Virus record (IMG/VR): IMGVR_UViG_3300012920_000023
Coordinates: 32,001 to 96,000 of that record
Reading direction: 5' to 3' (one strand)
DNA length: 64,000 nucleotides
Source of the DNA: a virus
Part shown: one piece after another, positions 1 to 64,000 of the stretch
Layout: every line of letters starts with the position of its first letter
How positions within the stretch are numbered: position 1 is the stretch's first letter
The notes under the pieces: generated by a model
What the model saw: only the letters and a program-made list of their open reading frames with translations
Database searches by the model: none
Told to the model about the DNA's origin: nothing
Made by a program: the position numbers and the translations under genes

Positions 1-2
1 TG

Positions 3-386
3 AAAGACTCTGCGATTAAGAAAGCGAGTGGCAAAGAGGGTTCAAGGTCTTTTCAGTTCTCCGCACCCAAGGATAATAAAGACCATAAACGCAATCGTCC
101 ACATGCCCACGTTAATCCGGCGAATAATAAACGACAGACCTTTAACAGCCCTCAGTTTAAGTACAATAATCGACAGTATCGTTTGCGTGCAAAACAGGCT
201 TGTGGTCGAAACGCAAGAAACTATTTCCGAGCGAAGATGGGGCGTGCACCGTTAAAGAGCAAAGACCTTTACCGTCGATGCCGTGACGGTAAGATTCCTA
301 CTTGGGCCGAGTCGGTAACAGACGCATATACTGCAACAAAAGAGTATCTTGTTGGAAGACTGCGTCAGAGCAAACAAGGTAAATAA
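3..386 (+). CDS. Partial (5'-truncated) highly basic hypothetical protein
   Basis: The frame of ORF 183..386 is open back to nt 3 (KDSAIKKASGKEGSRSF...); K/R-rich; stop 3 nt before the next start. Confidence 0.7.
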   Translation, partial: KDSAIKKASGKEGSRSFQFSAPKDNKDHKRNRPHAHVNPANNKRQTFNSPQFKYNNRQYRLRAKQACGRNARNYFRAKMGRAPLKSKDLYRRCRDGKIPTWAESVTDAYTATKEYLVGRLRQSKQGK

Positions 387-389
387 TCG

Positions 390-872
390 ATGGCTGTTTA
401 TACTCCCACTCAAGGCGAAGTTGGACTCCACCACTTTTATGAAGATGAACGAATCGGATTGAGTGGACAAGAGGGGGAGTATTATACAGTCAATCGTGCA
501 CGCAATGTTGACCCTCTGTACAATGAACCTACTGCAAATGCCGGTGGGTGGGGTTTTGAACCTGTATTTAAAGCGATATTTGCAGTCGAGTTTGAGACAG
601 CAGATAACGTAGAAATCGAGGTTCAAGACCGGGGTTATCATGAGGACGCAAATGTGAAGATCACGGTCTCCTACCTTGAATGGCAGAGGAAGTCTCCGGA
701 CTTAGCAAAGTATCCTCAACCTAAAGAGGGCGATATCGTTTACGTTATGGGCCGTTATTTTGACATTGTGAAAGCCAAGGATAAAGGGCGTCTTGTTCAT
801 TCAAATACTCCATCGGGCTATGTTATAGAGGGCCGACAGAGAACTAAGCATTTACCGCAGAGAAGAATCTAA
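390..872 (+). CDS. Putative neck / head-closure protein (T4 gp14-like)
   Basis: DPLYNEP motif and C-terminal PKEGDIVY...YFDI typical of head-closure proteins; lies upstream of terminator and sheath. Confidence 0.55.
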   Translation: MAVYTPTQGEVGLHHFYEDERIGLSGQEGEYYTVNRARNVDPLYNEPTANAGGWGFEPVFKAIFAVEFETADNVEIEVQDRGYHEDANVKITVSYLEWQRKSPDLAKYPQPKEGDIVYVMGRYFDIVKAKDKGRLVHSNTPSGYVIEGRQRTKHLPQRRI

Positions 873-1241
873 ATGATACCTGTTGAGTTGGTAAAGAAAG
901 CCACAGACAGTGGGGTGGTTTTTACATGTGCTATGTGCTTAAACTTTTGGCGTGCAAAGGCGAGCAACTTAAATGAGTGTAGGCCATTACTCAGTAGCGA
1001 GTGCTCCGGGCCACTCCGGGGTAAAGGTTATCCTCATTATGACGGGGTTTTAAAAGGGAACTTACACACGGCCTGTTTTGTGTGTGGGTGTAAACCCGAT
1101 GGAGTTTTAAAGACTCACGACGGGGTTATGGTTGGTGTCTGCAACAAGCATCGAGATGCTCTTTTTGATTTCAGTGGGCCGGTAGATGGTCGCCCCGAGA
1201 CTGCCGATTCATTGAAAGTAGAAGAGAAGACAGATGCCTAA
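873..1241 (+). CDS. Cys-rich putative Zn-binding protein
   Basis: CAMC, CFVCGC and CNKH motifs; directly coupled to neighbours. Confidence 0.6.
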   Translation: MIPVELVKKATDSGVVFTCAMCLNFWRAKASNLNECRPLLSSECSGPLRGKGYPHYDGVLKGNLHTACFVCGCKPDGVLKTHDGVMVGVCNKHRDALFDFSGPVDGRPETADSLKVEEKTDA

Positions 1242-2073
1242 CTATAAGTCGTCACGCACAAGTATATCGCCGATGATTCTCCCGGATAGAAAGACAGAGA
1301 GAGCCTACAAGGAAATTGAAGTCATGCCGGAGAGGGTTACTGAGGGGTATAAACTTGTCGCACTTGAAGCGACTACAATCGTTCTTGATTTTATAAAAAG
1401 GAACGCACCGATAATAGATAATGATGATTACTCTGCAAGGCTTGAGCCGGTCTATTCAGTCAGTAGTGATGGGACTGTAAATGTCTCTATCATAGGTAAA
1501 AACTTGGATCGAAAGACGAACGCCGAGGACGCTACTTCAATCGCTTTCCTTTATGCCAAAGGTATGCTTGAACCTAAGACAGCAAAGGCTTATGAGGTGC
1601 TTAGGAAGTATCAACCTTGGCCGGTAGGATTATATCCCTTACCCACGGGTGGCAGTAATGGCATTGGCCTTACGATAAGAAAAGTATCCGGACTTGAGTA
1701 TCAAACCCAAACTCTTAGGATTAATAAGAGTAAGAGTCGTATTGAGGGCACTTTGAGAAGTCTAGGGTTTGATGTAAATATAGCGACGAGTTCAGAGCCG
1801 AAAACTGTGCAGACAGACTTGGCTTTTGCTATCTTGCAGGTTGAGTATGGAATCGGTAGGAAAGCAGATTCTCATTGGAGGACTGCTATCTCCCGGCTAA
1901 AACGAGAGATCGGAGTACTCCAAGGCAAGTTTAAGCGTTTTATTGCCGAGGGACGGGAATCAATTTTTGTTATTGACAACACCATTGTAGAAGTGTCAAA
2001 AATAAAAGACTTAGACTCGCAATTACAAGAGCGTGTTGCTCAAAGTACCGGTTTAAAAGTTGAAAAACAATAA
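1234..2073 (+). CDS. Hypothetical protein, neck/tail-completion region
   Basis: 279-aa ORF overlapping the upstream stop; context only. Confidence 0.6.
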   Translation: MPNYKSSRTSISPMILPDRKTERAYKEIEVMPERVTEGYKLVALEATTIVLDFIKRNAPIIDNDDYSARLEPVYSVSSDGTVNVSIIGKNLDRKTNAEDATSIAFLYAKGMLEPKTAKAYEVLRKYQPWPVGLYPLPTGGSNGIGLTIRKVSGLEYQTQTLRINKSKSRIEGTLRSLGFDVNIATSSEPKTVQTDLAFAILQVEYGIGRKADSHWRTAISRLKREIGVLQGKFKRFIAEGRESIFVIDNTIVEVSKIKDLDSQLQERVAQSTGLKVEKQ

Positions 2074-2094
2074 CAATCAGAGGAGAGAAGTAAG

Positions 2095-2277
2095 ATGAGT
2101 AATGAGAATCTGCAAAAAATGGCCTTGGCTCTTTCAGACGTAGAAGCAGAGTTAAAACGGCGTCGAGAGGCAGAAACGATGGGTGAGCCATCAGAGGAAT
2201 TTCTTGATGCGTTCGATGATCTTGAAGACCTTGAAGATTATTTTGATGATGAGGTGGTCGACAACGACGACGAGTAA
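2095..2277 (+). CDS. Small protein with very acidic C-terminus
   Basis: AGGAG RBS upstream; D/E-rich tail. Confidence 0.6.
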   Translation: MSNENLQKMALALSDVEAELKRRREAETMGEPSEEFLDAFDDLEDLEDYFDDEVVDNDDE

Positions 2278-2321
2278 CGATAAACTCTATTCTACCTATG
2301 GTTTTTCATAAAGGTAGATAG

Positions 2322-3032: not shown

Positions 3033-3037
3033 AAGTT

Positions 3038-3313: not shown

Positions 3314-3344
3314 ACGTTAATTTTTCACTTAGGAGCATATAACC

Positions 3345-5807
3345 ATGTCTACTTATACTTATCCCGGGGTCTATATTAAAGAAGTACCCAAAGGGCCGGG
3401 GCCGGTGCAGGGCGTTTCAGCAAGCACTTGTGCGATGATCGGCTTTACCGAAGAGGGGGTTGTTGATCAACCAACATTAGTTACAAGTTTCCCCGAGTTT
3501 GTAGCATCTTTCGGTAACTTTACCACTTCAAGTCGTTTACCGACTTCTGCTTTTGCGTTTTTTCAAAACGGAGGACAGAACCTAGTCGTTGTTCGCACTG
3601 TAGGTGATAACGCAGAGGAAGCGAAAGGGATTATCGACGAGCCATACGCTAACTTAACCTCAGATGTAGCACCGGCTCCAAACGGTAATGCAGGAACCTT
3701 TACATTTAACCTTGAGCACACTCCGATTGTTCCCGGTTCATTGACGTTCACCTTTAATGGTAATAACTATACATCAGATGCAAGCGGTGTTCTCACGTTC
3801 CTCAATCAACCGCAAGGGAATAGTGGGTCAGTAAACTATCAAACCGGTGCGGTCTCGCTCACTGTCACTGCCAATGTTCCTCTCCTTGCACAGGTTCAAA
3901 CGATTACCTATAAGAACGCAAACATTACATTCTGTGCGTCATCACCCGGCATTTGGGGGAATGGCTTACAGGTTGTTCTTGAGGGCGATGATAACTCAGT
4001 CGATGCAAACGACGAATACACCTTATTCAATCTGATTGTAGAACGCTTAGATGACGATGGCAATTATGTACCCGTTGAGGTGATTAACGGAATTAATTTT
4101 GATGAGGACTCCGCTTCATTCATTCAAACGCTTGTTAATGACGACCGACGAGGGAGTGATCTCATCACTATTGTCGCAGGAAGTTCTCCAAAGACTCCTG
4201 CCGGATTAAGAGACAGACAGAAGACAGCACTTAAGAACTCTGCTCCTGCTATCGACGGAACTTCTCAGCAGTTGACTTATACACTAGGTGAACCTGTTAA
4301 CTCGAACACACTTCGTGGCGAGATTGTGATCGGTGACACTTTTGTTGATGCGATTAATAACAATCAATCATCCGGGTTTACTATTCCAAACTTTAGAGAT
4401 GTGACCGGTCAAACGAGTATCAATGCTCTGATTACCTACAGCGACAATTCAACAGAGTTGCTCACTTTTAATCAAGCACAGGCCGGAACAGCAATGACGG
4501 CAGGTTTTGAGAAGGACGCAGATGCGAATAATGCCCAAGAGGGTCTTCTTAAGGGTAACATCGTTATTCAAGCAAATGATGGCTCTTATGCTATTAATCT
4601 CTCCAATAATGAAGCGAATGCCCCAACCATCGCAAACATTACTTGGTCGTGGATACGTGCAGACAAACTCATTGTAGAAGATGATGGCACTAATGAGTTA
4701 GTGGTCGTTTCCGCCCCGGTAGGCTTGTCACTCAATCCTAATGGTGAAAACAAGATCGACCTAGCGACGGGTGAGGTTAAGTTACACCCGACCTTTGCAC
4801 AAGTAGGCAGTCTGCCCGAACGTGGCCCTGCTCCTGTCCTTGGTCTTACCGGAGAAATGTCTTTTACATATACCGTTGACACCGTTGCGACTCAGTTGAG
4901 CGTTGCTTTGACCGGTGGTGCCGACGGCGGTGCTTTGACAAGGGGGAATGTTTCAAATCCTACTTTGGCAGGGGATGAAAAGGGCTTATATTCACTAAAC
5001 AAAACCGAGGCTTTGTTGAATGTTTGTATCCCGGACTTTGCATCGAACACGGTTGTCTCTCAAGACCTCATTGATTACTGCGAGACTCGTAAAGATCGAT
5101 TTGCGATCATCTCAGTACCGGAGGGTTTCACTTATAAAGAGGCTATTGAATACAAGCGAAACACTTTACTGCGAAACAGCAATCGTTGTGCGATCTACTA
5201 TCCGCATTTGAAGTTGATTGATCCCATCTCCGAGAACGAGATCAACTTCCCGGCGGTGGGTCACATGGCAGGTATTTATGCACGAACAGACTCAACCCGA
5301 AATGTGTCTAAAGCACCTGCCGGTACTGTGGATGGTCGTTTAGCATTTGCGAGTGGAGTTGAGGTTGAGTTGACTCCGCAACAAGCCGGTTTTGTAAATA
5401 CCGCACACATTAACAACCTCGTCTCTTGGCCATTCACCGGCTTAGTGGCTTGGGGTGCTCGCACCTTAGAAGCAAACGGCGACTTCCCTTACATTCAAAT
5501 GCGACGCCTGTTCATGTTTGTCGAGAAGTCAGTGTTCAACGCTACTCAAGGTTTTGTGTTTGAGTCTAATACAGCAGGTCTGCGTGCAAGCATTAAACTT
5601 CAAATTGAAGCGTTCTTATTGAGTCTTCATCGCAGTGGTCACTTTGCCGGTACATCACCTGCACAGTCATTCTTTGTGATTTGTGACACATCTAACAATC
5701 CTCAGAACTTGATCGATCAAGGTCAACTTACTGTGGATGTTGGTATCGCTCCGACTAAGCCTGCCGAGTTTATCATCTTCCGTTTCCAACAGAAGACCAT
5801 ATCCTAG
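3345..5807 (+). CDS. Contractile tail sheath protein
   Basis: N-terminal YPGVYIKE, FFQNGG, KAPAG, WGARTL, RRLFMFVE and C-terminal VGIAPTKPAEFIIFRFQQ are sheath hallmarks. Confidence 0.97.
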   Translation: MSTYTYPGVYIKEVPKGPGPVQGVSASTCAMIGFTEEGVVDQPTLVTSFPEFVASFGNFTTSSRLPTSAFAFFQNGGQNLVVVRTVGDNAEEAKGIIDEPYANLTSDVAPAPNGNAGTFTFNLEHTPIVPGSLTFTFNGNNYTSDASGVLTFLNQPQGNSGSVNYQTGAVSLTVTANVPLLAQVQTITYKNANITFCASSPGIWGNGLQVVLEGDDNSVDANDEYTLFNLIVERLDDDGNYVPVEVINGINFDEDSASFIQTLVNDDRRGSDLITIVAGSSPKTPAGLRDRQKTALKNSAPAIDGTSQQLTYTLGEPVNSNTLRGEIVIGDTFVDAINNNQSSGFTIPNFRDVTGQTSINALITYSDNSTELLTFNQAQAGTAMTAGFEKDADANNAQEGLLKGNIVIQANDGSYAINLSNNEANAPTIANITWSWIRADKLIVEDDGTNELVVVSAPVGLSLNPNGENKIDLATGEVKLHPTFAQVGSLPERGPAPVLGLTGEMSFTYTVDTVATQLSVALTGGADGGALTRGNVSNPTLAGDEKGLYSLNKTEALLNVCIPDFASNTVVSQDLIDYCETRKDRFAIISVPEGFTYKEAIEYKRNTLLRNSNRCAIYYPHLKLIDPISENEINFPAVGHMAGIYARTDSTRNVSKAPAGTVDGRLAFASGVEVELTPQQAGFVNTAHINNLVSWPFTGLVAWGARTLEANGDFPYIQMRRLFMFVEKSVFNATQGFVFESNTAGLRASIKLQIEAFLLSLHRSGHFAGTSPAQSFFVICDTSNNPQNLIDQGQLTVDVGIAPTKPAEFIIFRFQQKTIS

Positions 5808-5817
5808 GAGAACTTAA

Positions 5818-6300
5818 ATGCCGAATATCATCGTCCATGAGGTGTTAAACGCCACCACTATAAACGGGGAATTGCCCGATGTTACTGCGACCACTCAAGT
5901 TAGCACTAAGCCAACTTATGGTGGGATTACTGAGTTCTTTGCAGGCTGTTCCAAGGCCGGACGTGTTGATGCAGGCATACAAGGAAACAGTCTAGTCGGT
6001 ATAGGTGCAAACTTGTCCGGGATTGCTAGTTTCAAGGTAATCATTAGGGATCGAGACACAGTGTACTCTACCGGTGCAGTTCCTGCGTTTGAGGTACTTG
6101 ATAGCACAGAGAACGAGTTTACAGACCGTGTCAAAGACGTAAACTCATTTTATTATCAGTTCAGAGATCCTGTTATGATACCGCCAAACCATAGCGTTGA
6201 GTTTGTAACGGCTCAAGCATCCGGCGTTGGCAGACTGTTTTTCGTACTTGGCTCCGGGTTTCAACGTGGAGCAGGCTTTGTGAGTGTAATTTCAAATTAA
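5818..6300 (+). CDS. Hypothetical virion-associated protein between sheath and tube
   Basis: AGGAG RBS; context. Confidence 0.6.
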   Translation: MPNIIVHEVLNATTINGELPDVTATTQVSTKPTYGGITEFFAGCSKAGRVDAGIQGNSLVGIGANLSGIASFKVIIRDRDTVYSTGAVPAFEVLDSTENEFTDRVKDVNSFYYQFRDPVMIPPNHSVEFVTAQASGVGRLFFVLGSGFQRGAGFVSVISN

Positions 6301-7536: not shown

Positions 7537-7812
7537 ATGATGATTAAAAGCAGAAAAATGGTGGTATTTACGGTATCCTTAGTGATGTTTCTTGGGAACT
7601 ATCTACTTGGTTCTCCGCTTCCGGAGGATCAAGTACAGCAGTTTTTAGTGTTGATCGTAGGTTGGTTAGTTGCACAAGGTGTTGCTGATGCAGGCACGCA
7701 GGGGCAGGTGAATTCTGCCCTCCGGGCCTCTAAGCAAGGACAGCAGATTATAGAAACAGTTAAAAGCCTTAAGAACGAGCAAGAATCTATCGATGCGTCC
7801 AAAGACAAGTGA
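7537..7812 (+). CDS. Holin-like small membrane protein
   Basis: KSRK followed by two hydrophobic segments and a charged tail. Confidence 0.55.
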   Translation: MMIKSRKMVVFTVSLVMFLGNYLLGSPLPEDQVQQFLVLIVGWLVAQGVADAGTQGQVNSALRASKQGQQIIETVKSLKNEQESIDASKDK

Positions 7813-7844
7813 CGCACACATGTGCACACCGACAGGAGTCAACC

Positions 7845-8741
7845 ATGAATCTAGTAGAGCAGTTGGAATTTTTATTAACTGACGTGGGAGGGATTACCTC
7901 CCTTTTAGAAGATCACGTTAGACCACCATATTCATCACCGGCAGGAAAGATGAGGATGGCAAAATCAATCGTGAGTATTATCCCGGATCACAAGATTTAT
8001 GTTGAACCTTTCGCCGGTTCTGCGTCTGTGCTTTTCGCCAAGCCACCGGCAGAAAAAGAAGTGCTTAACGATCTAGATACAGACATTGCCGACGCTCTAA
8101 AGACTCTTAGTAGAATGAGCAAGAGTGATCTTGATCGGCTTATGAATAAAGATTGGCATGGTGACGAGCATAAATACAAGCGTCTTTATTCAATGAGATC
8201 ATCAGATGCAATCGAGCGTCTTTACCGCTTCTTATACCTCGCTAAAATGGCCTTTGGCAGTGTTCGTGGCCCCGGTAATTTCTGCAAGCGAGAAGCAACG
8301 AGGGATCATAGCCCTTACTTTAAGAGAAGATTGCCCCCGGCGGTGGAGCGAATGAGGGGTGTTAAGGTTTATAATAAGGATTATGAGTCTGTCTGCCGTC
8401 AGTATGATAGCCCACAAACATTCTTTTTCCTTGATCCTCCTTATGCCGGATATAGTGCCCTCGATGCGAGTGCTAAAAGCGGTCAAAAGACAGGCGAGAA
8501 AGACTTTGATGAGACTAAGTTTTTCAACATGCTTAGAAGCCTTAAAGGTAAATGGTTTTTAAACTATGGTGAGCGTGGAGAGTTGCCCGGTATGTTAAAG
8601 CAGGCCGGATACACCACAAGGATTGTCCATAAGAATCGTGACTTCCGACACATCTTGAAGAAAGGTGGAGACAAGGATGGGCCGAAAACAGTAGGACACT
8701 TGATCGCCTCCAATTACGGTGCGAACCTGTCGGGGTTTTAA
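7845..8741 (+). CDS. dam: DNA adenine methyltransferase (Dam/D12 class) with N-terminal leader
   Basis: Motif I EPFAGSAS, LNDLD, motif IV DPPY; start moved to ATG 7845 behind AGGAG. Confidence 0.92.
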   Translation: MNLVEQLEFLLTDVGGITSLLEDHVRPPYSSPAGKMRMAKSIVSIIPDHKIYVEPFAGSASVLFAKPPAEKEVLNDLDTDIADALKTLSRMSKSDLDRLMNKDWHGDEHKYKRLYSMRSSDAIERLYRFLYLAKMAFGSVRGPGNFCKREATRDHSPYFKRRLPPAVERMRGVKVYNKDYESVCRQYDSPQTFFFLDPPYAGYSALDASAKSGQKTGEKDFDETKFFNMLRSLKGKWFLNYGERGELPGMLKQAGYTTRIVHKNRDFRHILKKGGDKDGPKTVGHLIASNYGANLSGF

Positions 8742-8742
8742 G

Positions 8743-9576
8743 ATGTTATACGCTAAACTAGAATCTCTTTTGCAGAGCACTTTTCTCAACGAAGAGTTTG
8801 CCGTTATCAGACCGCCGTTTGCATCGCCTGCCGGTAAGATGCGAATGGCAGTGAGTTTAGCGTCGAAAATTCCGACTCATAGCACTTATGTAGAGCCATT
8901 CGCCGGTTCATCGGCGGTGTTTTTTGCGAAGCCAAAGGCAAGTGTTGAGGTGTTGAATGACCTCGATAGTGATGTCAGTAATGCTTTGAAGTCTCTCGCT
9001 ACTCTTTCTCCTGCCGAGTTAAAGCAACTTACCTCTATGGATTTTACCGGTTCGCAGGCGAAGTATCATCAAGTGTTTGATAGCAGTCCGACAAGTAAAG
9101 TGGGCAAACTGTATCGGTTCTTATACTTGACGAGGTTCTCTATGAACTCCGGGCGTGGACGCAGTCAGTTTAATCATTTTCAAGCGATCACCACTCCTTA
9201 TTTAGCGAGGCGTGTACCTCCTGCGGTTGAACGCTTAAAGGGCGTAAAGGTACACAATGAAGATTATGAAAGTGTGTGCCGAAAGTATGACTCACCTCAG
9301 ACTTTTTTCTTTCTTGACCCTCCTTATTCCGGCTTTAGTGCCCTCAAGGGCAAGGCTTCTGAAAAAGGGTTTGATGAGGAACGCTTTTTTGACCTTTTAA
9401 GGTCGCTAAAGGGCAAATGGCTACTCAACTATGGAACCAAGGGCAAACTGCCCGGTATGCTTAAACAGGCCGGCTTCAAGGTGAGACATGACACGAGATC
9501 AAGTACGGCCAATATAATGAAGCATGGTAAGGCCAATGGTAATAAACTCACTCACATTATTGCTTCAAATTATTAA
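8743..9576 (+). CDS. dam: Second tandem DNA adenine methyltransferase (Dam/D12 class) with N-terminal leader
   Basis: EPFAGSSA, LNDLD, DPPY; close paralog of the upstream gene; ATG 1 nt after its stop. Confidence 0.92.
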   Translation: MLYAKLESLLQSTFLNEEFAVIRPPFASPAGKMRMAVSLASKIPTHSTYVEPFAGSSAVFFAKPKASVEVLNDLDSDVSNALKSLATLSPAELKQLTSMDFTGSQAKYHQVFDSSPTSKVGKLYRFLYLTRFSMNSGRGRSQFNHFQAITTPYLARRVPPAVERLKGVKVHNEDYESVCRKYDSPQTFFFLDPPYSGFSALKGKASEKGFDEERFFDLLRSLKGKWLLNYGTKGKLPGMLKQAGFKVRHDTRSSTANIMKHGKANGNKLTHIIASNY

Positions 9577-12239: not shown

Positions 12240-13376
12240 TTAATTTTCATCGCTTTGATCTGCAAATGAAAAATGATCGATACGTTCACATGCCGTGTCA
12301 TAGTATTCAGTTGAGATTTCAATACCTTTGAAGTTGAAACCCTCTTTTCCGCAGGCAATCCCGGTGGTTCCCGATCCCATAAAAGGGTCTAGGACTGTGC
12401 CGTTTGCCGGGGTAACTAATCGCACAAGATATTCCATTAATGCTATAGGTTTAACTGTTTTGTGTGTGTTTGGGTCTGATAGCCCGGCCTGCTTTTCTTT
12501 CTTGCTTGCTTTTGGACAGTAGAAAAAGCGTGTTGCTCCACTGCTCTGCCGTTCAAGCGTCTCAAGTGTCTCTGAGTTAGAGAAGATAATGTTTGAGGGA
12601 AACCTGCCTAGCGGATGACTCTCCACAGTTCTTAGTTTAGTTTTAAACGTACCTATTGAGTCATTTGGTTGATGAGTTGATTTCCATGACTCATCGCTCT
12701 CAATCCGGCAGGCATCAATGTTAAGGCCACCGGTTTTATGCTTAAGCACGTTTTTTACCACCGTACCCTCTAAGGGTTTACGCATAACCAAAATAGGCTC
12801 ATAGGCCGGCTTAAGGGTTGTGCCCCATCCCTCAAACTCAGTATGCCCTTTAGTTATGTATGCGGTCTTACCGACTGTGCCGGACTCATACAACGTGTTG
12901 CTCTTATCACATTTTTCCCGGCTATTAGGATTTCGTCCGATAATTTCACGCTCATTTCCGAGTTTTTTGTCTACCATTTTTCCAATATCTTGGCTCTTAG
13001 GGAAGCCACTCCCATAGACCCAATGTAGGCAGTCTCTGCTTTCAAAGTTTGCGATCCTCATAGATAAGCCCATAAGGTCTTGTGTTCTTGAGCCGGCGAA
13101 CACTAGAGCATGACCTCCGGGCTTTAATACTCGATAAACTTCTTTCCATAACGCAGGAGGGGGGACAAATCCGTCCCAAGATTCACCCATGAACCCTTTT
13201 TTATTCGGGGGCACATAGGAATCATCACCATTTGACCATTCAGTCAGTACCTTAATAAACTCTTTAGTTTTTAGTTGCGACAGGCCATAAGGGGGATCGG
13301 TGACAACAGCGTCTATGGTGTTGCTCTGTATCTCTTTAAGAGCCTGCAAGGCTTCTCCGTTGATTAGTTCATTCAT
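12240..13376 (-). CDS. DNA methyltransferase, N4-C/N6-A beta class
   Basis: VTDPPYG precedes VLDPFMGSGTTG; HKTVKP motif. Confidence 0.93.
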   Translation of the reverse strand: MNELINGEALQALKEIQSNTIDAVVTDPPYGLSQLKTKEFIKVLTEWSNGDDSYVPPNKKGFMGESWDGFVPPPALWKEVYRVLKPGGHALVFAGSRTQDLMGLSMRIANFESRDCLHWVYGSGFPKSQDIGKMVDKKLGNEREIIGRNPNSREKCDKSNTLYESGTVGKTAYITKGHTEFEGWGTTLKPAYEPILVMRKPLEGTVVKNVLKHKTGGLNIDACRIESDESWKSTHQPNDSIGTFKTKLRTVESHPLGRFPSNIIFSNSETLETLERQSSGATRFFYCPKASKKEKQAGLSDPNTHKTVKPIALMEYLVRLVTPANGTVLDPFMGSGTTGIACGKEGFNFKGIEISTEYYDTACERIDHFSFADQSDEN

Positions 13377-23364: not shown

Positions 23365-24162
23365 ATGAGTAAGAGAAAATCACATAACGACGAATGGTAT
23401 GAAGAGTTTGAGGGCACAGAAGATACCGGATTCGATCCGGATTACTGCTACGAGTGCGACTCATTCCGATGCGAATGTTATGAACTTCTTGACGGTGATT
23501 ACAACCAAAGAGGTCGGCAACAGAACTTGTTTGATGGCCTTTTTGATAGTTATCAAAGTGATGATTACAATCAAGATTATGGCTATGATGAAGATGATGA
23601 ATATGATGAACAGCCGGATAACGACTACAGTCAAGTTGTAGAGTATCAACGCAGACCGTTGAGTCAACCTTTATGGAGTCAGAACTCATTCAGACGCTAT
23701 AGCATCAAGCCTTTAAATAGAGTTGATCCTAATGAACGGGTTTTATACTTCGCATTTGGCTCAAATATGGAAAAGAGCCAAATGTTAAAGCGTTGTCCAT
23801 CGGCTCAAGAGGTTGAGGGCAAGTATACACTTGATGGTTATCGATTGACTTTCTGCGGTCATTCAAACAAGTGGGGTGGTGGAGTAGCCACAATCATAAA
23901 AGAGCGTTTTGATATAGTCCTAGGTCGGTTATTTAGCCTAACTTGGAGCGATGTATATAAACTAGATGGCTTTGAGGGTCATCCATACGTTTATAAGCGT
24001 CAGTATGTCACTCTTACCGACGGTCAAAGGGCATTAACTTACATCAAGCCGGTTAAGAATAATGAGTCTAAACCAAGCCTTTCATATTTCACAACAATCG
24101 CAAGGGGCTATCAACAAGTGGGGTATGAGTTAGATAAACTTGTTGACTCATCTAGCAAGTAA
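23365..24162 (+). CDS. Gamma-glutamylcyclotransferase (AIG2-like) with acidic D/E/Y-rich N-terminal extension
   Basis: LYFAFGSNM, RCPSA, GYRLTF, LDGFEG..YKR. Confidence 0.85.
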   Translation: MSKRKSHNDEWYEEFEGTEDTGFDPDYCYECDSFRCECYELLDGDYNQRGRQQNLFDGLFDSYQSDDYNQDYGYDEDDEYDEQPDNDYSQVVEYQRRPLSQPLWSQNSFRRYSIKPLNRVDPNERVLYFAFGSNMEKSQMLKRCPSAQEVEGKYTLDGYRLTFCGHSNKWGGGVATIIKERFDIVLGRLFSLTWSDVYKLDGFEGHPYVYKRQYVTLTDGQRALTYIKPVKNNESKPSLSYFTTIARGYQQVGYELDKLVDSSSK

Positions 24163-24234
24163 GACGCATACTCTCTTCTGCTTTTAGATAAAATGCAGTC
24201 AATGTTGAAAAGCGAGAGAAAGGTCTAACTTATT

Positions 24235-24501
24235 ATGAGTGCAAGTTTCTACGAAAATGCCGATATAACCGTATTTGGAGTACAATTTTCAAACTCCACA
24301 CCTCTTCAAATAATCCAATACTTTATGGATAAATCGATTTTTAAAAAGTATAACACCATTGAAGAATATATGGTTCATCTTGAGAGGTTTATGGAAGTTC
24401 CGGAGCGAGTAGAGGGCGAATCAGATCGTGATTTTGTGGAGCGACTTTTTGATGAGTTCTACAGACTTGGCATTCTAAAGATAGACGAAGTAATACATTA
24501 A
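24235..24501 (+). CDS. Hypothetical protein
   Basis: 88-aa ORF with AAGG upstream. Confidence 0.55.
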   Translation: MSASFYENADITVFGVQFSNSTPLQIIQYFMDKSIFKKYNTIEEYMVHLERFMEVPERVEGESDRDFVERLFDEFYRLGILKIDEVIH

Positions 24502-24563
24502 TCAGTGCACACGTGTGCACACGTTTAGGGAGTTGGGCAACCACCCATCTCTCCGGAGGCTCT

Positions 24564-26651
24564 ATGATATTTTCCGGCGAAAATGAGGGGCGAAAGGTAC
24601 GTTCTTTTGTCCTGCCTAGTTCATTTATTGATCAATATAAAGAAAGGCAACCCAAGTGGGGGCCATTAGGTTACATAACTTATAAGCGAACTTATGCTCG
24701 GCCTAAGCCGGATGGAAGTTCAGAAGAGTTCTATGAGACTGCTCAAAGAGTAGTTGAGGGTGTGTACAATGTCCAAAAGATACACTGTAGAAGACTCGGA
24801 CTTCCTTGGGATGATCGTAAGGCTCAAAAATCTGCTCAAGAAATGTACCGCCGTATGTGGGAGTTTAAGTTCCTCCCACCGGGGCGTGGTCTATGGATGA
24901 TGGGCACAGAGCAGGTTTACAAGAACGGCAGTGCAAGCCTTAATAACTGTGCGTTTGTATCAACGAAAGACATAGCCACTGATTTTGCATCTCCGTTCAC
25001 CTTTTTGATGGATATGTCTATGCTAGGAGTTGGCGTCGGGGGTGACTGTAAAGGTGCAGGATTAGTACGGATTGTTGAGCCATCCATTGATGAAGAAACT
25101 TATAAAGTAGAGGATAGCCGGGAGGGGTGGGTTGGACTTCTGAGGGTTATTTTAAACGCCTATGTAGGAAAGGGCAGTCTCCCGGCAGAGGTTGATTACA
25201 GTGATGTCCGGCCTTACGGTACACCTATTAAGGGCTTTGGTGGTGTAGCAAGTGGCCCTAAGCCTTTGATTGAACTTACTGATAAAGTTAAAGAAGTCCT
25301 TAATACTCCCGGTGAGTTAATCACGACCTCGCAGATCGTAGACATATTCAACCTTATCGGTGTGTGTGTTGTAGCAGGCAATGTTCGGCGTACTGCCGAG
25401 ATTATGTTCGGTGAGCCGGACGACGAGGTTTTCGCAAAACTAAAAGACCCATCTGAACTCAATGAACTTTATCGCCGGCAACAAGAACTTGAGAGCGATT
25501 ATACGTTTCCCGATGAAAGTGTAGAGTCTAAGATCGAAGAGGTTAAGAGACAAATCTCAAATCACCCTCTGCGAACTCACCGGTGGGCTTCAAATAACTC
25601 AATATTTGCCGAGATAGGAATGGACTACAGCACGATAGCCGAGTCAATAAAGGCGAACGGAGAACCGGGCTTGGTTTGGTTAGACACAATGAGAGATTGG
25701 GGCCGGCTCATTGATCATAAACCTAACGGTAAAGATTATCGTGCGATGGGTTCAAACCCATGTGCAGAGCAGACTCTTGAGTCCTTTGAGTTGTGCTGTT
25801 TAGTAGAGACATTCCCGGCTCATCATGATGATCTAGATGATTATTTAGACACATTAAAATACGCATATCTGTATGCAAAAACCGTGACCCTCATTCCGAC
25901 TCATGACCCCCGGACAAACACTGTTATGAACAGGAATCGTCGTATAGGTTGCAGTCAATCGGGGATTGTACAAGCGATGAACAAGTTAGGCAGAAGAACT
26001 TATCTTAATTGGTGCAACATCGGTTACAATCGCATTAAGACTCTTGATAGGAAATACTCAGAGTGGCTAGGCATCCCGAAGTCGATTAAGACAACCTCAG
26101 TAAAGCCGTCCGGCACTGTCTCACTTCTGTGTGGTGCGACTCCGGGCATCCACTTCCCTCACAGTGAATACTATATACGTCGCATTCGTATCGCCGAGGG
26201 ATCACCTTTAGTCGAAATGTGTGCTAATGCCGGTTACCCCGTTGAAACCGATGTTTATGATCAGACCGGCAAGACTATGGTTGTGTCTTTTCCTGTCAAA
26301 GAGGAGCATTACACTAAAGGGAAGAGTGAAGCCACTATATGGGAGCAGGTTGTCAATGCCGTTGACTTACAGCACTATTGGGCCGATAATCAAGTTAGTG
26401 TGACTGTTACTTTTAGCAAAGATGAGGGAAATCAGATTGTGCCGGTGTTAGAGTCATTTGAGAACCGACTTAAGAGCATATCATTCCTACCAATATCGGA
26501 ACACGGATATGCTCAAGCACCTTATGAGACAATCAGTGAGTCGGATTACAACACGCTTATAGAGAATATAAAGCCCATGTTGTTGACTATTGATGGCCAT
26601 GATGTAGAAGATAAATTCTGCGACGGTGACAGTTGCGAAATAAACTTTTAA
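24564..26651 (+). CDS. nrdJ: Class II (adenosylcobalamin-dependent) ribonucleoside-triphosphate reductase, monomeric type
   Basis: PPGRGLW, LNNCAF, AGNVRRTA, catalytic NPCAEQ, VKPSGTVS, C-terminal CDGDSC; start at ATG 24564 behind GGAGG. Confidence 0.95.
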   Translation: MIFSGENEGRKVRSFVLPSSFIDQYKERQPKWGPLGYITYKRTYARPKPDGSSEEFYETAQRVVEGVYNVQKIHCRRLGLPWDDRKAQKSAQEMYRRMWEFKFLPPGRGLWMMGTEQVYKNGSASLNNCAFVSTKDIATDFASPFTFLMDMSMLGVGVGGDCKGAGLVRIVEPSIDEETYKVEDSREGWVGLLRVILNAYVGKGSLPAEVDYSDVRPYGTPIKGFGGVASGPKPLIELTDKVKEVLNTPGELITTSQIVDIFNLIGVCVVAGNVRRTAEIMFGEPDDEVFAKLKDPSELNELYRRQQELESDYTFPDESVESKIEEVKRQISNHPLRTHRWASNNSIFAEIGMDYSTIAESIKANGEPGLVWLDTMRDWGRLIDHKPNGKDYRAMGSNPCAEQTLESFELCCLVETFPAHHDDLDDYLDTLKYAYLYAKTVTLIPTHDPRTNTVMNRNRRIGCSQSGIVQAMNKLGRRTYLNWCNIGYNRIKTLDRKYSEWLGIPKSIKTTSVKPSGTVSLLCGATPGIHFPHSEYYIRRIRIAEGSPLVEMCANAGYPVETDVYDQTGKTMVVSFPVKEEHYTKGKSEATIWEQVVNAVDLQHYWADNQVSVTVTFSKDEGNQIVPVLESFENRLKSISFLPISEHGYAQAPYETISESDYNTLIENIKPMLLTIDGHDVEDKFCDGDSCEINF

Positions 26652-34452: not shown

Positions 34453-34803
34453 CTATTCCACGTCTTCTGATTCGTCAGAGACATCAGACTCTTCGGAATC
34501 TTCGACTTCTTCGGAGTCTGCGGAATCTTCTTCAAACGAAATGTCGATGCCATCTTCCTCAGATTCGGCTTGAAGTTCGTCCTCAGAGTTATCGCCGGAG
34601 CCTGTGATTCGTGCGTATTCGGCCTGTAGACCTTGAAGCGAAAGTGCACATGCTTGAATAATGATCTGTCTCTCATAAGGGTTAAGCAGTACACGCTCTG
34701 CCACTGCGGTTACGACTTTTACTGCTTCAAAACGTGCTTCAACAATCTGTTCTTCGGTAGGTTGCTGTTGAGTGTTTGCTTCACTGCTCATAGTTCTCTC
34801 CAT
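34453..34803 (-). CDS. Hypothetical protein with very acidic C-terminus
   Basis: D/E/S-rich tail. Confidence 0.6.
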   Translation of the reverse strand: MERTMSSEANTQQQPTEEQIVEARFEAVKVVTAVAERVLLNPYERQIIIQACALSLQGLQAEYARITGSGDNSEDELQAESEEDGIDISFEEDSADSEEVEDSEESDVSDESEDVE

Positions 34804-53178: not shown

Positions 53179-53520
53179 ATGGCAAATATATGTAGTTATG
53201 CATTTAAGTGGGAAGATGGACAAGGTCGGCTGTTTAATGACCCCGAGTCTTACGATCAAGAGATCGCAGGTGATACAACGATCGGATGCCGAAAGTGGCA
53301 TCCACCGATCAGTTTATTAAGGGCGATGAAAGCATCGGGCAGGCTTGATTGGGAGGAGCATGGCTTACTAGGAGTAGGCTATACAATACTCAAAGACGGC
53401 GTTATTACTCAACAGGTGGCGGTTGATACACCCAAGAACATTGAAGAGTGTAGGGAGGTAATGAATACCTATCCAACCCTTGATGTTCAAAACCTTGTTG
53501 ATCAGTATGAGGACGAGTAA
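53179..53520 (+). CDS. Hypothetical cassette protein
   Basis: Own promoter and RBS. Confidence 0.7.
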   Translation: MANICSYAFKWEDGQGRLFNDPESYDQEIAGDTTIGCRKWHPPISLLRAMKASGRLDWEEHGLLGVGYTILKDGVITQQVAVDTPKNIEECREVMNTYPTLDVQNLVDQYEDE

Positions 53521-53588
53521 GCAGGCTACTGATCAAGGGGGGGAGTGCTGGGTGCTTAAGGGATGGCGGTCATTGGTTGCGGTATGGG

Positions 53589-53618: not shown

Positions 53619-53695
53619 CTTAACCGGCTTACATATATAGAACACCATAGCCGGTAAAAGTGTGACATTTTTTTTAAAGTTTTTTTATTTTTATA

Positions 53696-60833: not shown

Positions 60834-60869
60834 ATCTTTTCTCCTTGATATGAGGTTGATAATAAACTC

Positions 60870-60898
60870 AAGTTAAGTGCATACATACTGAAAGTCAA
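60870..60898 (-). promoter_or_regulatory. Sigma70-type promoter TTGACT-N17-TAACTT
   Basis: Consensus, T-rich UP element, upstream GGTGCT arm. Confidence 0.7.
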
Positions 60899-61010
60899 AT
60901 AAAAAAGAAAAAAATAAGTTGCAACTTAAAGCACCTTAAGTCCGGTTGATTGAAGTTCAAGGTGTCTATATGCTATTGTAACGACACACACTTAAGGCAA
61001 GGATATTATT

Positions 61011-62221: not shown

Positions 62222-62233
62222 GATCTGCCTCTC

Positions 62234-62857
62234 TTACCAATCAAGATCAGTATCTTCGACTTCACGATACTCATCTTCCCGACTAGGCTTTATGGTAGGT
62301 TGTACCACCTGCTGTGCACCGAAAAACCGATCTTGGCATGACCATAGAAAATTGATAGTAGGCAGACCGCTTAACCGGCCTCGACTGCTCGTAACCATGC
62401 CCGGCCATTCCTCCACAAAGTTTTTGATCACGATCTCGACCATCTCTCGGGTGTAGTTTTGGCATAGTTTTTTAGCGAGAGTGTTCTCCTTTACTCCCCA
62501 TCGCTTAGTTATGACCTCTTGGCCATACACCACATTAATCTGTGCTTTGAAATACTTTTCAAGCCCGGCAGAGATCGACTTCGTTTTCGCAGGCTTTTTT
62601 TTAGCAGGCTTGGGTTCTACCGGTGGCTCCATTGCTAACGGTGGGTAGGTTGCCGGTCTGCTTTTTCTGTTGTACTGTTCAGAGAGGCTCTGAAATACGG
62701 TTCTCCGGCGTTGCGGTTGCTCATAAAACTCAGAGAGATTTTGATCTAGTTCTTGATCTGCAAATGCATCGTAAATGTCTTTTACTTTTTTAGGCTCAAA
62801 CGAAACGCTCTCTCTGCGTTTTAAGTTTTTAAGCCTTTTCAACTTATTGATACTCAA
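62234..62857 (-). CDS. Hypothetical protein, possible replication-initiation accessory
   Basis: GGAGG RBS; basic linker plus helical C-terminal domain; function is inference only. Confidence 0.5.
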   Translation of the reverse strand: MSINKLKRLKNLKRRESVSFEPKKVKDIYDAFADQELDQNLSEFYEQPQRRRTVFQSLSEQYNRKSRPATYPPLAMEPPVEPKPAKKKPAKTKSISAGLEKYFKAQINVVYGQEVITKRWGVKENTLAKKLCQNYTREMVEIVIKNFVEEWPGMVTSSRGRLSGLPTINFLWSCQDRFFGAQQVVQPTIKPSREDEYREVEDTDLDW

Positions 62858-62873
62858 CTTTTTCCTCCTATCT

Positions 62874-63170
62874 TTAGTCTACAGAGGTATCGAGTTCTAT
62901 TTGGTGGGGTTCGTAAGTCGAAATCAAGTTTTTTATTTGAACAACATAGACGCAATAGTCTTTTGTGTTATCATATTGAGCACTTATGCGAGACAAAAGA
63001 AGTTTCGCTTCTGACGTACTCAAGCCTCCTAGAACCATCTCAAGGCTTCGTCTCTCTAAGATGATTCCTCGTTCGTCTCTTTCTGTGCGAACAGAGTCCC
63101 CGACCCGGAGTCGCCATATTTTGTTATTGAGTAAGTCTTTAAAATGCGTTCTCTTAAACTCTTTAAACAT
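62874..63170 (-). CDS. Hypothetical protein
   Basis: Open frame in the minus-strand operon; start uncertain. Confidence 0.45.
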   Translation of the reverse strand: MFKEFKRTHFKDLLNNKIWRLRVGDSVRTERDERGIILERRSLEMVLGGLSTSEAKLLLSRISAQYDNTKDYCVYVVQIKNLISTYEPHQIELDTSVD

Positions 63171-63469
63171 TTAAGGTACTCCGGAGCACAGTTCCACTTA
63201 AAATCGATGCCATCAAGTAACCAAAAAGGACTGCGAATCCTCGTGTCATCTATTTTCCAACCATCTGCCAAGAGAATGAGATATAAAAAGCATCTTTGTG
63301 CACCATCAAACTTGTTGGCGATGCCTTTAAGTTGGTTGATGCGTTCTCTCGGGTTGATGTTCGGGCGTCTAGGCAAGGAGATCGACATGATCTCGCCATC
63401 AATGATAATCTCATGTCGGTTATTCTTCAACCTATTAACTTGGCTCAGTCGCTTCAACCGGCTATCCAT
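63056..63469 (-). CDS. Hypothetical protein
   Basis: AGGAG RBS; overlaps the downstream ORF by 115 nt. Confidence 0.45.
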   Translation of the reverse strand: MDSRLKRLSQVNRLKNNRHEIIIDGEIMSISLPRRPNINPRERINQLKGIANKFDGAQRCFLYLILLADGWKIDDTRIRSPFWLLDGIDFKWNCAPEYLKCLKSLRERILKTYSITKYGDSGSGTLFAQKETNEESS

Positions 63470-63480
63470 TCACGCTACTC

Positions 63481-63759
63481 CTATCTGTTGCGTTCAGTGA
63501 TGTAATCCATCTCAACTTTGAGTCCCTCTCGACCACCGTGTGCTGTTAAGATACTTCTTATCGCAGAGACTACATGCCCACTCTTACCGATGACTTGACC
63601 CACATCCTTTTTGTCTGTGTGGAGTTCTACTATTAATCTGAACTGCGAGGGGACTATATTCACCTCAACAGTCTCCGGACTATCGACTATCCCTTTTATG
63701 ATAGTAGTGACTAGATTCTTAAGGTTGTCTATATGTTCTCGGGTAATTTGTTTGCTCAT
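63481..63759 (-). CDS. khpA: Single-KH-domain RNA-binding protein (KhpA-like)
   Basis: LV..I...IVD.PE.V.V, D.GQVIGKSG....AIR.IL with GxxG loop. Confidence 0.85.
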   Translation of the reverse strand: MSKQITREHIDNLKNLVTTIIKGIVDSPETVEVNIVPSQFRLIVELHTDKKDVGQVIGKSGHVVSAIRSILTAHGGREGLKVEMDYITERNR

Positions 63760-63762
63760 CTT

Positions 63763-63999
63763 CTACCACCTTATCATTGGAAAATTGTCGCTCATGTACT
63801 CGTCAAACTCTTGACTATTAAGTGCTAAAGTCTCGACTTGATCTATACTGTGTTGAGGTTCATAATACAGGTCTCTTACGATATCTGCACCATATTTTAA
63901 AAAGGCTCCCGGAGTAATCGAGTAATAGTCGTTAAAAGATTGTTCCTTAGAGACATACTTCCATCCACAGTCATTGGATATGGATTCAATAGGAATAAG
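63763..63999 (-). CDS. Partial (5'-truncated) hypothetical protein
   Basis: Frame open from the window end (LIPIESISNDCGWKY...FPMIRW*). Confidence 0.55.
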   Translation of the reverse strand, partial: LIPIESISNDCGWKYVSKEQSFNDYYSITPGAFLKYGADIVRDLYYEPQHSIDQVETLALNSQEFDEYMSDNFPMIRW

Positions 64000-64000
64000 C

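What the first reader, a model, noticed from the sequence alone, without database searches (positions are those of the whole stretch)
1..64000. Broad motif purge including the non-palindromic tetramer CCAG/CTGG
Seen by eye over many kb: AGCT, GCGC, CGCG, GGWCC and CCAG/CTGG are essentially missing, while GATC, GGCC, TCGA and especially CCGG are common. The Gly-Pro pairs I checked use GGC/GGG-CC, and Pro-Gly pairs use CCC/CCG-GG, which explains the CCGG excess. The only CTGG I noticed is intergenic at 53548..53551. Loss of the whole asymmetric 4-mer, not just CCWGG, is not explained by a common palindromic Type II enzyme. Inference: the host has several R-M systems plus an asymmetric-site defence, and the avoided set is a host fingerprint.
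Basis: partly seen in the sequence, partly recalled or inferred. Interest (0 to 1): 0.75.

Follow-up and report, generated by a model that had tools for sequence, protein, structure and literature searches.

The report
Extreme restriction-site purge in marine phage
An uncultured marine phage has silently rewritten its genes to remove about 25-30 short DNA words, including every copy but one of the asymmetric word CCAG/CTGG in the window; this is an unusually extreme example of the known trick of dodging host restriction enzymes.

Summary
The window is bases 32001-96000 of a 113,463-bp contig of an uncultured marine myovirus.

**Counts over the whole contig**
- AGCT, CGCG, GCGC, GGWCC and GCNGC: 0 sites each.
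- CCAG/CTGG: 3 sites against about 427 expected. All sixteen NCCAGN contexts are missing, not only CCWGG.
- CCTTC, CCTGA, CCCGC and about 15 hexamer families are also nearly eliminated.

**How it is done**
- The purge works through synonymous codon-pair choice. For example, none of 354 Trp codons follows a codon ending in C.
- It also holds in intergenic DNA.

**Relatives**
- It is maintained in a 96%-identical strain sampled 8 years later.
- The avoided set changes between relatives. The closest one (85% amino-acid identity in the sheath) keeps CCAG but lacks CCGG.
- Even so, the CCAG purge recurs across most of this phage clade.

**Precedent**
- CCAG is a documented methylation motif (H. pylori A45, T. 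phaeum, Sporosarcina).
- CCAG avoidance is published for halovirus Hardycor1.
- Earlier notes of this scan report the CCAG purge in at least 10 other aquatic phage genomes.

**Verdict**
- This is restriction-site avoidance, combined with three phage-encoded methyltransferases. It is a new, extreme member of a known kind.
- The host and the CCAG-cutting enzyme remain unidentified.
- The CCGG excess is only about half explained by the purge.

The parts
1..64000 (.). Genome-wide purge of about 25-30 short words. AGCT, CGCG, GCGC, GGWCC, GCNGC and CCAG have 0 sites; CTGG has 1. CCTTC, CCTGA, CCCGC and many hexamers are nearly absent.
   Evidence: Markov-normalised counts on both strands. The same holds over the full 113-kb contig.
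53548..53551 (+). The only CTGG in the window. It is intergenic, inside a degenerate copy of the GAGCACC/GGTGCTC cassette palindrome, in the small early-gene cassette array.
53279..53284 (.). The only CGATCG of the whole contig. It lies in the same cassette array as the surviving CTGG.
   Evidence: contig position 85279
7809..8741 (+). D12-class (Dam-like) N6-adenine DNA methyltransferase, first of a tandem pair. Candidate protector of a site that is not avoided; GATC is the obvious guess but was not shown.
   Evidence: PF02086, E=1e-18. Only remote similarity to solved Dam/DpnM structures.
8719..9576 (+). Second D12-class N6-adenine DNA methyltransferase.
   Evidence: PF02086, E=1.7e-15
12240..13376 (-). 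N6_N4-type DNA methyltransferase (beta class). Specificity unknown.
   Evidence: PF01555, E=8e-32. The PDB matches cover only the C-terminal motif region: DpnA, MboIIA, CcrM and N4C methyltransferases.
3345..5807 (+). Tail sheath gene. It was used as the marker to find relatives and to compare codon spelling site by site with L117.
   Evidence: phrog_23, E=7e-63
24001..25900 (.). Stretch in which 40 substitutions against a 96.4%-identical strain (2025 marine run) could be read. None of them creates a purged word.
   Evidence: 4.7 expected, P=0.007

Best explanation
This is restriction-site avoidance carried to an extreme. A virulent marine myovirus is under continuing selection from a host population that carries many restriction systems. 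It has removed their recognition words by synonymous codon and codon-pair choice and by editing its intergenic DNA. The removed words include orthodox 4-6-bp palindromes and several asymmetric words: CCAG, CCTTC, CCTGA, CCCGC and CTGAAG. The asymmetric words are of the kind recognised by Type IIS, IIG or III enzymes. CCAG/CTGG is most likely the target of an R-M system with a 4-bp CCAG specificity, which is a documented methylation motif. Sites that remain frequent (GATC, CCGG, GGCC, TCGA, CTAG) are either not restricted in these hosts or are covered by the phage's three own DNA methyltransferases. Shown here: the depletion, its synonymous implementation, its persistence, and its turnover among relatives. 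Inferred: that restriction endonucleases are the selective agent, which enzyme class cuts CCAG, and what the phage methyltransferases protect.
For: (1) Size of the effect: CCAG/CTGG 3 vs 427 expected; AGCT, CGCG, GCGC, GGWCC and GCNGC all 0 in 113 kb. (2) Synonymous implementation: 0 of 354 Trp and 0 of 431 CAG codons follow a C-ending codon, while CAA does so 125 times. Pro-CCA is 0 of 428 before G against 215 of 811 elsewhere. Leu-CTG is 0 of 927 before G. NCT-GGN is 1 of 2504. NCC-AGN is 0 of 1615. (3) Not a coding artefact: in 14 kb of intergenic DNA, CCAG is 2 vs 40 and AGCT is 0 vs 84, both-strand counts. (4) Ongoing selection: a 122.5-kb contig from a 2025 marine run is 96.4% identical. 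The 40 readable substitutions create no purged word, although 11.7% of random substitutions with the same spectrum would (P=0.007). (5) Turnover typical of host fingerprints: the closest relative, L117 (85% sheath identity), has normal CCAG (12 vs 11), GCGC and CGCG, but no CCGG or AGCT. At orthologous positions G000 spells CCGG where L117 spells CCAG or CTGG. L005-L008 purge TTAA, TATA, ATAT and ACGT instead of GCGC and CGCG. (6) CCAG is a real R-M-type motif: a CCAG-specific methyltransferase was knocked out in H. pylori A45 and CCAG methylation was seen in T. phaeum (PMC10689673); it is also a listed Type II motif in Sporosarcina P32a (PMC5930826). (7) Published precedent: halovirus Hardycor1 has AGCT at 0 and CCAG at O/E 0.11 (PMC7911831), recomputed here as 11 vs 93. 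(8) Most other purged words are recognition sites of classical Type II enzymes, by my own knowledge of REBASE prototypes: AluI, BstUI, HhaI, AvaII, Fnu4HI, HpyAV, FauI, PstI, KpnI, EagI, NcoI, NdeI, StuI, BamHI, PvuI, AcuI, Bsu36I, BanI, BanII, BsaAI. (9) The phage encodes three DNA methyltransferases.
Against: The host is unknown, so no cognate restriction gene or host methylome could be inspected. A survey of about 4000 phages found elimination of non-orthodox (Type I, IIG, III) sites in under 0.5% of cases (PMC6286503), so near-complete loss of five asymmetric words is atypical for classical R-M pressure. The CCAG purge is shared by most members of a deep clade whose other avoided words differ and whose GC spans 41-57%. 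That requires a CCAG-specific system to be unusually widespread among their hosts. No orientation-only retention, the Type III signature, is seen. The specificities of the phage methyltransferases could not be inferred.
Confidence: 0.78

Rival explanations
1. CCAG/CTGG is the target of a host defence that is not a classical R-M system, and that is widespread in aquatic bacteria. Examples would be an unmethylated-word-sensing nuclease or a phosphorothioate-type system. The palindromic purges would still be ordinary R-M avoidance.
For: The CCAG purge recurs across a deep clade while the other avoided words turn over. Unverified scan notes report it in at least 10 unrelated aquatic phages. Avoidance of asymmetric Type IIG/III sites is otherwise very rare (PMC6286503).
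Against: CCAG-specific methyltransferases of R-M type are documented (PMC10689673, PMC5930826). No feature of the purge distinguishes it from the neighbouring R-M-type purges. No candidate system has been identified.
Confidence: 0.12
2. The phage lineage encodes its own CCAG-specific nuclease or nickase, used for example to destroy host DNA, and is immune because it lacks the word. Relatives that lost the gene (L012, L117) then regained CCAG.
For: The purge is clade-wide across very different GC contents, with two nested exceptions. The three surviving sites are all CTGG on the + strand.
Against: No site-specific endonuclease was found among the roughly 60 larger ORFs scanned. The only hits were a RecB-like PD-(D/E)XK nuclease, helicases, a primase and a RecA-like protein. 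However, the contig is only about 63% complete. L117 has swapped to a CCGG purge, which looks like a change of external pressure. Unrelated phages, and phages with purges confined to one region, reportedly show the same word loss (not verified here). Three same-strand survivors are expected by chance at P=0.25.
Confidence: 0.06
3. The depletion is a mutational or compositional artefact, such as hypermutable methylated cytosines or an assembly artefact, and not selection.
For: CCGG is the transition neighbour of both CCAG and CTGG and is enriched.
Against: Mutation bias cannot hold a word at 3 of 427 in all sixteen flanking contexts, on both strands, and in coding and non-coding DNA. Independent assemblies from other studies carry the same sequence. 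Close relatives have the word at normal frequency.
Confidence: 0.01

Closest known systems
Halovirus Hardycor1 of Halorubrum coriense (Dyall-Smith et al. 2021, PMC7911831)
   Same: It shows a broad purge of tetramers and 22 palindromic hexamers that includes the non-palindromic tetramers CAGC, CATC and CCAG. AGCT is absent and CCAG is at O/E 0.11. The virus also carries a Dam-like methyltransferase. I recomputed AGCT as 0 vs 95 and CCAG as 11 vs 93.
   Different: It is an archaeal siphovirus of 45 kb with GC 68%. CCAG is reduced about 9-fold there, against more than 100-fold here. CTAG and TGCA are lost there but are normal here. GCGC, CGCG, GCNGC and GGWCC are not on its list of absent or under-represented motifs (Tables 2 and 3).
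Restriction-site avoidance in virulent dsDNA phages (survey: Rusinov et al. 2018, PMC6286503)
   Same: Recognition words are eliminated by silent recoding in a non-temperate dsDNA phage, and most of the lost words are orthodox Type II palindromes.
   Different: In the survey about 7% of Type II site-genome pairs are eliminated, and under 0.5% for other types. Here about 25-30 specificities are lost together, including at least five asymmetric words. One ban (GCNGC) reaches the protein level, so that no Ala-Ala dipeptide remains.
CCAG-specific DNA methyltransferases (H. pylori A45 hp0944; CCAG methylation in T. phaeum DSM 12270; Sporosarcina P32a): PMC10689673, PMC5930826
   Same: They show that a 4-bp asymmetric CCAG specificity exists in bacterial modification systems, which is the specificity needed to explain the purge.
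   Different: These organisms are not marine plankton. No CCAG-cutting endonuclease was characterised in those papers. No link to this phage's host is known.
Phage T7 and EcoP15I (Type III evasion by keeping all sites in one orientation; own knowledge, not checked in a paper here)
   Same: An asymmetric restriction word is under selection in a virulent phage.
   Different: T7 keeps its sites in a single orientation. Here both orientations are removed, and no word is retained on one strand only.
Phage T5 first-step-transfer region (regional purge; cited from scan notes and own knowledge)
   Same: The sites are restriction sites lost from phage DNA.
   Different: In T5 the purge is limited to the DNA that enters first. 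Here it covers all 113 kb evenly, apart from a leaky 1.75-kb patch.

Membership tests
Restriction-site avoidance (anti-restriction by word elimination) | Words are significantly under-represented against a Markov expectation on both strands. | tested here: met
   p from 1e-6 down to 1e-179 after Bonferroni correction
Restriction-site avoidance (anti-restriction by word elimination) | Depletion is achieved without changing proteins (synonymous or codon-pair recoding) and is also present in non-coding DNA. | tested here: met
   The exception is GCNGC, which also removes the Ala-Ala dipeptide (0 vs 150 expected).
Restriction-site avoidance (anti-restriction by word elimination) | The avoided words are recognition sequences of known R-M systems. 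| tested here: met
   CCAG was checked in the literature. The palindromes and CCTTC, CCCGC and CTGAAG match REBASE prototypes by my own knowledge. A few words (AAATTT, GCCTCA, CCGTGC, CCCAAC) have no enzyme that I can name.
Restriction-site avoidance (anti-restriction by word elimination) | The host carries the cognate R-M systems. | not testable with these tools
   Host unknown. The genome-contig scan gave only distant sheath homologues in soil bacteria. The nearest cultured phages are below 38% identity.
Restriction-site avoidance (anti-restriction by word elimination) | The avoided set differs between related phages on different hosts. | tested here: met
   L117, L012, L005 and L006-8 each have a different set
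CCWGG (Dcm/EcoRII-type) avoidance | Only CCAGG/CCTGG is lost; CCAG[A/C/T] is retained. | tested here: not met
   CCAG[A/C/T] 3 vs 336 expected. By contrast L012 and Microcystis phage Mel-JY01 do show the CCWGG-only pattern.
Type III evasion by strand bias (T7/EcoP15I type) | The asymmetric word is kept, but in one orientation only. | tested here: not met
   no k-mer (k=4-6) is confined to one strand. CCTTC 2 / GAAGG 4 and CCTGA 3 / TCAGG 2 are mixed. The 3 CTGG against 0 CCAG are too few to count.
T5-like regional (first-injected DNA) purge | The purge is confined to one terminal block and sites are normal elsewhere. | tested here: not met
   the 54 exceptions are spread over 113 kb and no region has normal frequencies. 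The contig is only about 63% complete, so the missing part is untested.
Self-methylation by phage orphan methyltransferases | The phage encodes DNA methyltransferases without a partner endonuclease. | tested here: met
   two D12-class and one N6_N4 methyltransferase, and no C5 methyltransferase
Self-methylation by phage orphan methyltransferases | The methyltransferase specificities match the sites that are not avoided. | tested here: inconclusive
   only remote similarity to solved methyltransferases, so no specificity can be assigned

The most novel reading that the evidence does not exclude
The recurrent total loss of CCAG/CTGG is not the mark of a classical R-M pair. The loss is seen here, across most of this phage clade and, by unverified scan notes, in many unrelated aquatic phages. 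On this reading it is the footprint of a widespread, uncharacterised defence of planktonic bacteria that attacks a 4-bp asymmetric word; less likely, it reflects a phage-borne CCAG nuclease.
Probability: 0.15. Interest if true: 0.75.

Novelty: new member of a known kind. Interest (0 to 1): 0.5.

Why it matters
The contig shows how far passive anti-restriction can go. At least 25 specificities are avoided at once in more than 113 kb. One ban (GCNGC) is strong enough to delete a dipeptide from the proteome, and asymmetric words that surveys say phages almost never avoid are eliminated. The avoided set is a ready-made prediction of the methylome and restriction repertoire of an unknown marine host population. 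The recurring CCAG purge points to a CCAG-cutting activity that is common in aquatic bacteria but has no characterised endonuclease. Both predictions can be tested with metagenomic methylome binning.

Tried and rejected
**Host identification failed**
- megablast against cultured phages found nothing.
- Sheath and capsid tblastn gave only hits below 38% identity: Bacillus BCD7, Flavobacterium immuto, Rhodothermus RM378, Microcystis Mel-JY01 and uncultured huge phages.
- The one genome-contig scan returned distant sheath homologues (30-39% identity) in soil-bacterial genomes and MAGs; I did not examine them further.
- The window has no tRNAs.
- The amidoligase search found phage-like relatives only; the best is 92% identical and sits on a 125-kb contig.

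**Cultured phages screened for a CCAG purge**
- Ma-LMM01, immuto, S-BM3 and LR756511 are normal.
- Mel-JY01 lacks only CCWGG.

**Other checks that gave nothing usable**
- The test for words retained in one orientation only was negative.
- Methyltransferase specificity from PDB homology was inconclusive.
- Read laying showed only 40 of about 796 variant rows, so the selection test rests on 1.9 kb.
- A first, sequential version of the constrained resampler hit dead ends and was replaced by an exact forward-backward sampler.

**Readings rejected**
- Mutational bias and VSP repair. VSP repair would raise CCAG, not remove it (PMC4687349).
- CRISPR PAM avoidance, because 4-bp PAMs are not known to me and both strands are cleared.
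- LpnPI/MspJI-type methyl-dependent enzymes, which would need the phage DNA to carry m5C; no C5 methyltransferase was found.
Full report
**What the DNA is.** The window is bases 32001-96000 of a 113,463-bp linear IMG/VR virus contig, estimated to be 63% complete.

It is a contractile-tailed phage distantly related to T4:
- Tail sheath at 3345-5807, baseplate wedge at 35616-37790, baseplate proteins, and an anaerobic/class-II-like ribonucleotide reductase at 24513-26651.
- ThyX, MazG, PhoH, an SLT lysozyme and a RecB-like PD-(D/E)XK nuclease.
- An amidase endolysin with a peptidoglycan-binding domain.
- Terminase, portal, prohead protease and a gp23-like capsid protein upstream of the window.
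- DnaB-like helicase, primase, a ResIII/DEAD helicase and a RecA/UvsX-like protein downstream.

The sequence occurs in marine metagenomes from three studies, dated 2014, 2017 and 2025. No cultured phage is close: the best matches are 38% (sheath) and 33% (capsid) identity. The window has no tRNA genes.

**The observation.** Counted on both strands against a maximal-order Markov expectation, the window has:
- no AGCT, CGCG, GCGC, GGWCC or CCAG;
- a single CTGG, at 53548.

Over the whole contig the figures are:

| Word | Observed | Expected |
|---|---|---|
| AGCT | 0 | 293 |
| CGCG | 0 | 146 |
| GCGC | 0 | 143 |
| GGWCC | 0 | 99 |
| GCNGC | 0 | 153 |
| CCAG/CTGG | 3 | 427 |

The whole 4-mer is therefore missing, not only CCWGG.

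After Bonferroni correction the list of purged words extends much further:
- CCTTC (6/168), CCTGA (5/131), CCCGC (2/65).
- CTGCAG, CATATG, CCATGG, AGGCCT and GGATCC, all at 0.
- GGTACC, AAATTT and CGATCG, at 1 each; CGGCCG at 2.
- CTGAAG (4/37), AACGTT (5/34), CCTNAGG (0/15).
- The degenerate families GRGCYC (6/57), GGYRCC (11/69) and YACGTR (4/35).

That is about 25-30 specificities in all.

**It is selection, and it is implemented silently.** I made 137 crude gene calls covering 32,964 codons.

| Codon context | Observed |
|---|---|
| Trp preceded by a C-ending codon | 0 of 354 (22.6% of third positions overall are C) |
| CAG preceded by a C-ending codon | 0 of 431 (CAA: 125) |
| Pro-CCA before a G | 0 of 428 (215 of 811 elsewhere) |
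| Leu-CTG before a G | 0 of 927 |
| NCT before GGN | 1 of 2504 |
| NCC before AGN | 0 of 1615 |

- The ban also holds in 14 kb of intergenic DNA: CCAG 2 vs 40, AGCT 0 vs 84, GCGC 0 vs 27, both-strand counts.
- One ban reaches the proteins. GCNGC cannot be avoided in Ala-Ala, and the proteome has no Ala-Ala dipeptide against 150 expected. Another first-stage note on this genome had flagged this, and I confirm it.
- The selection is current. A 122.5-kb contig from a 2025 run is 96.4% identical over 20 kb.
- Of the 40 substitutions the tool displayed, none creates a purged word. By comparison, 11.7% of random substitutions with the same spectrum would, giving 4.7 expected and P=0.007.

**CCGG excess.** Those spellings are as described, but Pro-Gly supplies only 81 of the 712 CCGG in coding DNA.

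I resampled synonymous codons exactly, keeping the same proteins and the same codon usage:

| Model | CCGG in coding DNA |
|---|---|
| No bans | about 320 |
| CCAG/CTGG banned | about 424 |
| All purged words banned | about 509 |
| Observed | 712 |

The purge therefore explains about half of the excess, as an escape-route effect. Examples are CCG-G replacing CCA-G, and NCC-GGN replacing NCT-GGN.

A 1.4-fold residue remains, and CCGG is also 1.6-fold enriched in intergenic DNA. Two contributors are likely, both by inference:
- CCGG is the transition neighbour of both CCAG and CTGG.
- Few G+C-rich words are left for building stems once GCGC, CGCG, GCNGC, CCAG and GGWCC are banned.

**Exceptions.** Only 54 copies of any purged word exist in 113 kb.
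- Thirteen lie in the first 6 kb of the contig, which is outside the window.
- Eight lie within 4081-5829, around an amidoligase gene (P about 3e-6).
- That 2-kb stretch is the second most atypical in trinucleotide composition (z=2.8).
However, the amidoligase is shared with related phage-like contigs and is not obviously host-derived.
- In the window, the only CTGG and the contig's only CGATCG both sit in the array of small early-gene cassettes.

**Relatives.** Sheath-based searches gave 48 viral and 12 metagenomic loci. In a maximum-likelihood tree this contig groups with L005, L012 and L006-L008 (SH-aLRT 94). The tree is the quick version, because the careful search did not finish.

CCAG is absent in:
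- L005 (0/158), L006 (0/84), L007 (0/130), L008 (0/71), L049 (0/60);
- L113 (0/17), L114 (0/12), L115 (0/26), L119 (0/18).

These contigs span GC 42-57%. CCAG is also absent from the two shortest relatives, L120 (0/5) and L121 (0/6; GC 41%), but the expected counts there are too small to count as evidence. All 23 members of the sister clade have normal CCAG.

The rest of the avoided set turns over between relatives:
- L005-L008 lose TTAA, TATA, ATAT and ACGT but keep GCGC and CGCG.
- L012 loses ACGT, AGCT and CCGG, and only the CCWGG subset of CCAG.
- The closest relative, L117 (a Global Ocean Sampling read-contig, 85% sheath identity), has normal CCAG (12/11), GCGC and CGCG but no CCGG or AGCT.
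- In 894 aligned nucleotides, 3 of L117's 9 CCAG/CTGG are CCGG in this phage, and none of this phage's 8 CCGG is CCGG in L117.

This reciprocal respelling between near relatives is what a change of host restriction repertoire predicts. It argues against any intrinsic sequence requirement.

**What cuts CCAG?**
- A 4-bp asymmetric specificity is not exotic.
  - A CCAG-specific methyltransferase was confirmed by knockout in H. pylori A45, and CCAG methylation was detected in Thermacetogenium phaeum (PMC10689673).
  - CCAG is listed as an already-known Type II motif in a Sporosarcina methylome (PMC5930826).
- CCAG under-representation has been published for halovirus Hardycor1 (O/E 0.11, together with zero AGCT; PMC7911831). 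I reproduced that figure as 11 vs 93.
- I could not tell which enzyme class acts here.
  - The Type III signature, retention in one orientation, is absent.
  - Complete removal of both orientations fits enzymes that cut at single sites (Type IIS or IIG), but it does not exclude Type III.
- The large survey by Rusinov et al. found elimination of non-orthodox sites in under 0.5% of phage-site pairs (PMC6286503). The joint loss of CCAG, CCTTC, CCTGA, CCCGC and CTGAAG is therefore unusual.
- Earlier notes of this scan report CCAG purges in at least 10 other aquatic phage genomes, some confined to early regions. I did not verify those notes. If they hold, they favour a widespread host activity over a phage-borne one.

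**Second arm of the strategy.** The phage encodes two tandem D12-class adenine methyltransferases (7809-8741 and 8719-9576) and an N6_N4 methyltransferase (12240-13376). It has no C5 methyltransferase. Their specificities cannot be read from homology. That they protect frequent words such as GATC is an inference.

**Rivals.**
- A phage-borne CCAG nuclease with self-avoidance would explain the clade-wide pattern. No candidate gene was found, and the switch of L117 to a CCGG purge looks externally driven.
- A non-R-M host defence cannot be excluded.
- Mutation bias is excluded by the size of the effect, its independence of context, and the normal frequencies in close relatives.

**Verdict.** This is a new and extreme member of a known kind.

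Noticed in passing
whole contig, including window 1-64000: There is no Ala-Ala dipeptide in 32,964 codons, against 150 expected, because GCN-GCN always contains the banned GCNGC. Gly-Pro is also halved (42 vs 95).
   Followed up: partly
L105:4081-5829 (contig coordinates, outside the window): Eight of the contig's 54 surviving purged words cluster in 1.75 kb around an amidoligase gene (PF12224 / phrog_2443). This is the second most atypical 2-kb stretch by trinucleotide composition, so it is possibly younger DNA. AGCT, GCGC and CGCG are still absent there.
   Followed up: partly
L117:1-1668 (GOS contig AACY023927182.1): The closest relative found (85% amino-acid identity in the sheath) has the opposite spelling rule. 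CCGG and AGCT are absent; CCAG, GCGC and CGCG are normal.
   Followed up: yes
L005-L008, L049, L115: Relatives with GC about 56% lack the A+T-only tetramers TTAA, TATA and ATAT, and largely lack ACGT and AATT. I know of no classical Type II enzyme for TATA or ATAT (own knowledge).
   Followed up: no
window, intergenic DNA generally; for example 53620-53660: CCGG is 1.6-fold enriched in non-coding DNA as well, and it occurs in both arms of small hairpins. A 1.4-fold CCGG excess in genes stays unexplained after modelling all the bans.
   Followed up: partly
whole contig: AATT is half-depleted (206 vs 434 sites). Loss of AAATTT alone cannot account for this, so it suggests partial pressure on AATT itself.
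   Followed up: no
window 34488-34498: Strains in the 2025 marine runs carry an 18-nt in-frame insertion of a TCTTCGG-type repeat unit here. The inserted unit differs between runs, so this is a length-variable repeat.
   Followed up: no
window 7809-9576: Two adjacent Dam-like methyltransferase genes overlap by 23 nt. Another first-stage note suggests that they share a cleavable leader and may be packaged in the virion. This was not tested here.
   Followed up: no
L108 (Microcystis phage Mel-JY01), L110 (Synechococcus phage S-BM3), L111 (uncultured huge phage LR756511): These cultured or reference phages show their own purges. Mel-JY01: GATC 0/180, CTAG 0/73, GGWCC 0/21, and CCWGG absent. S-BM3: CCGG 0/49, GGCC 6/54, TTAA 40/256. 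LR756511: CCGG 0/102.
   Followed up: no
window 14947-20790 (minus strand): A 1947-aa tail-associated protein gene is the most compositionally atypical part of the contig (GC 0.49, z up to 2.8), yet it contains almost no purged words.
   Followed up: no
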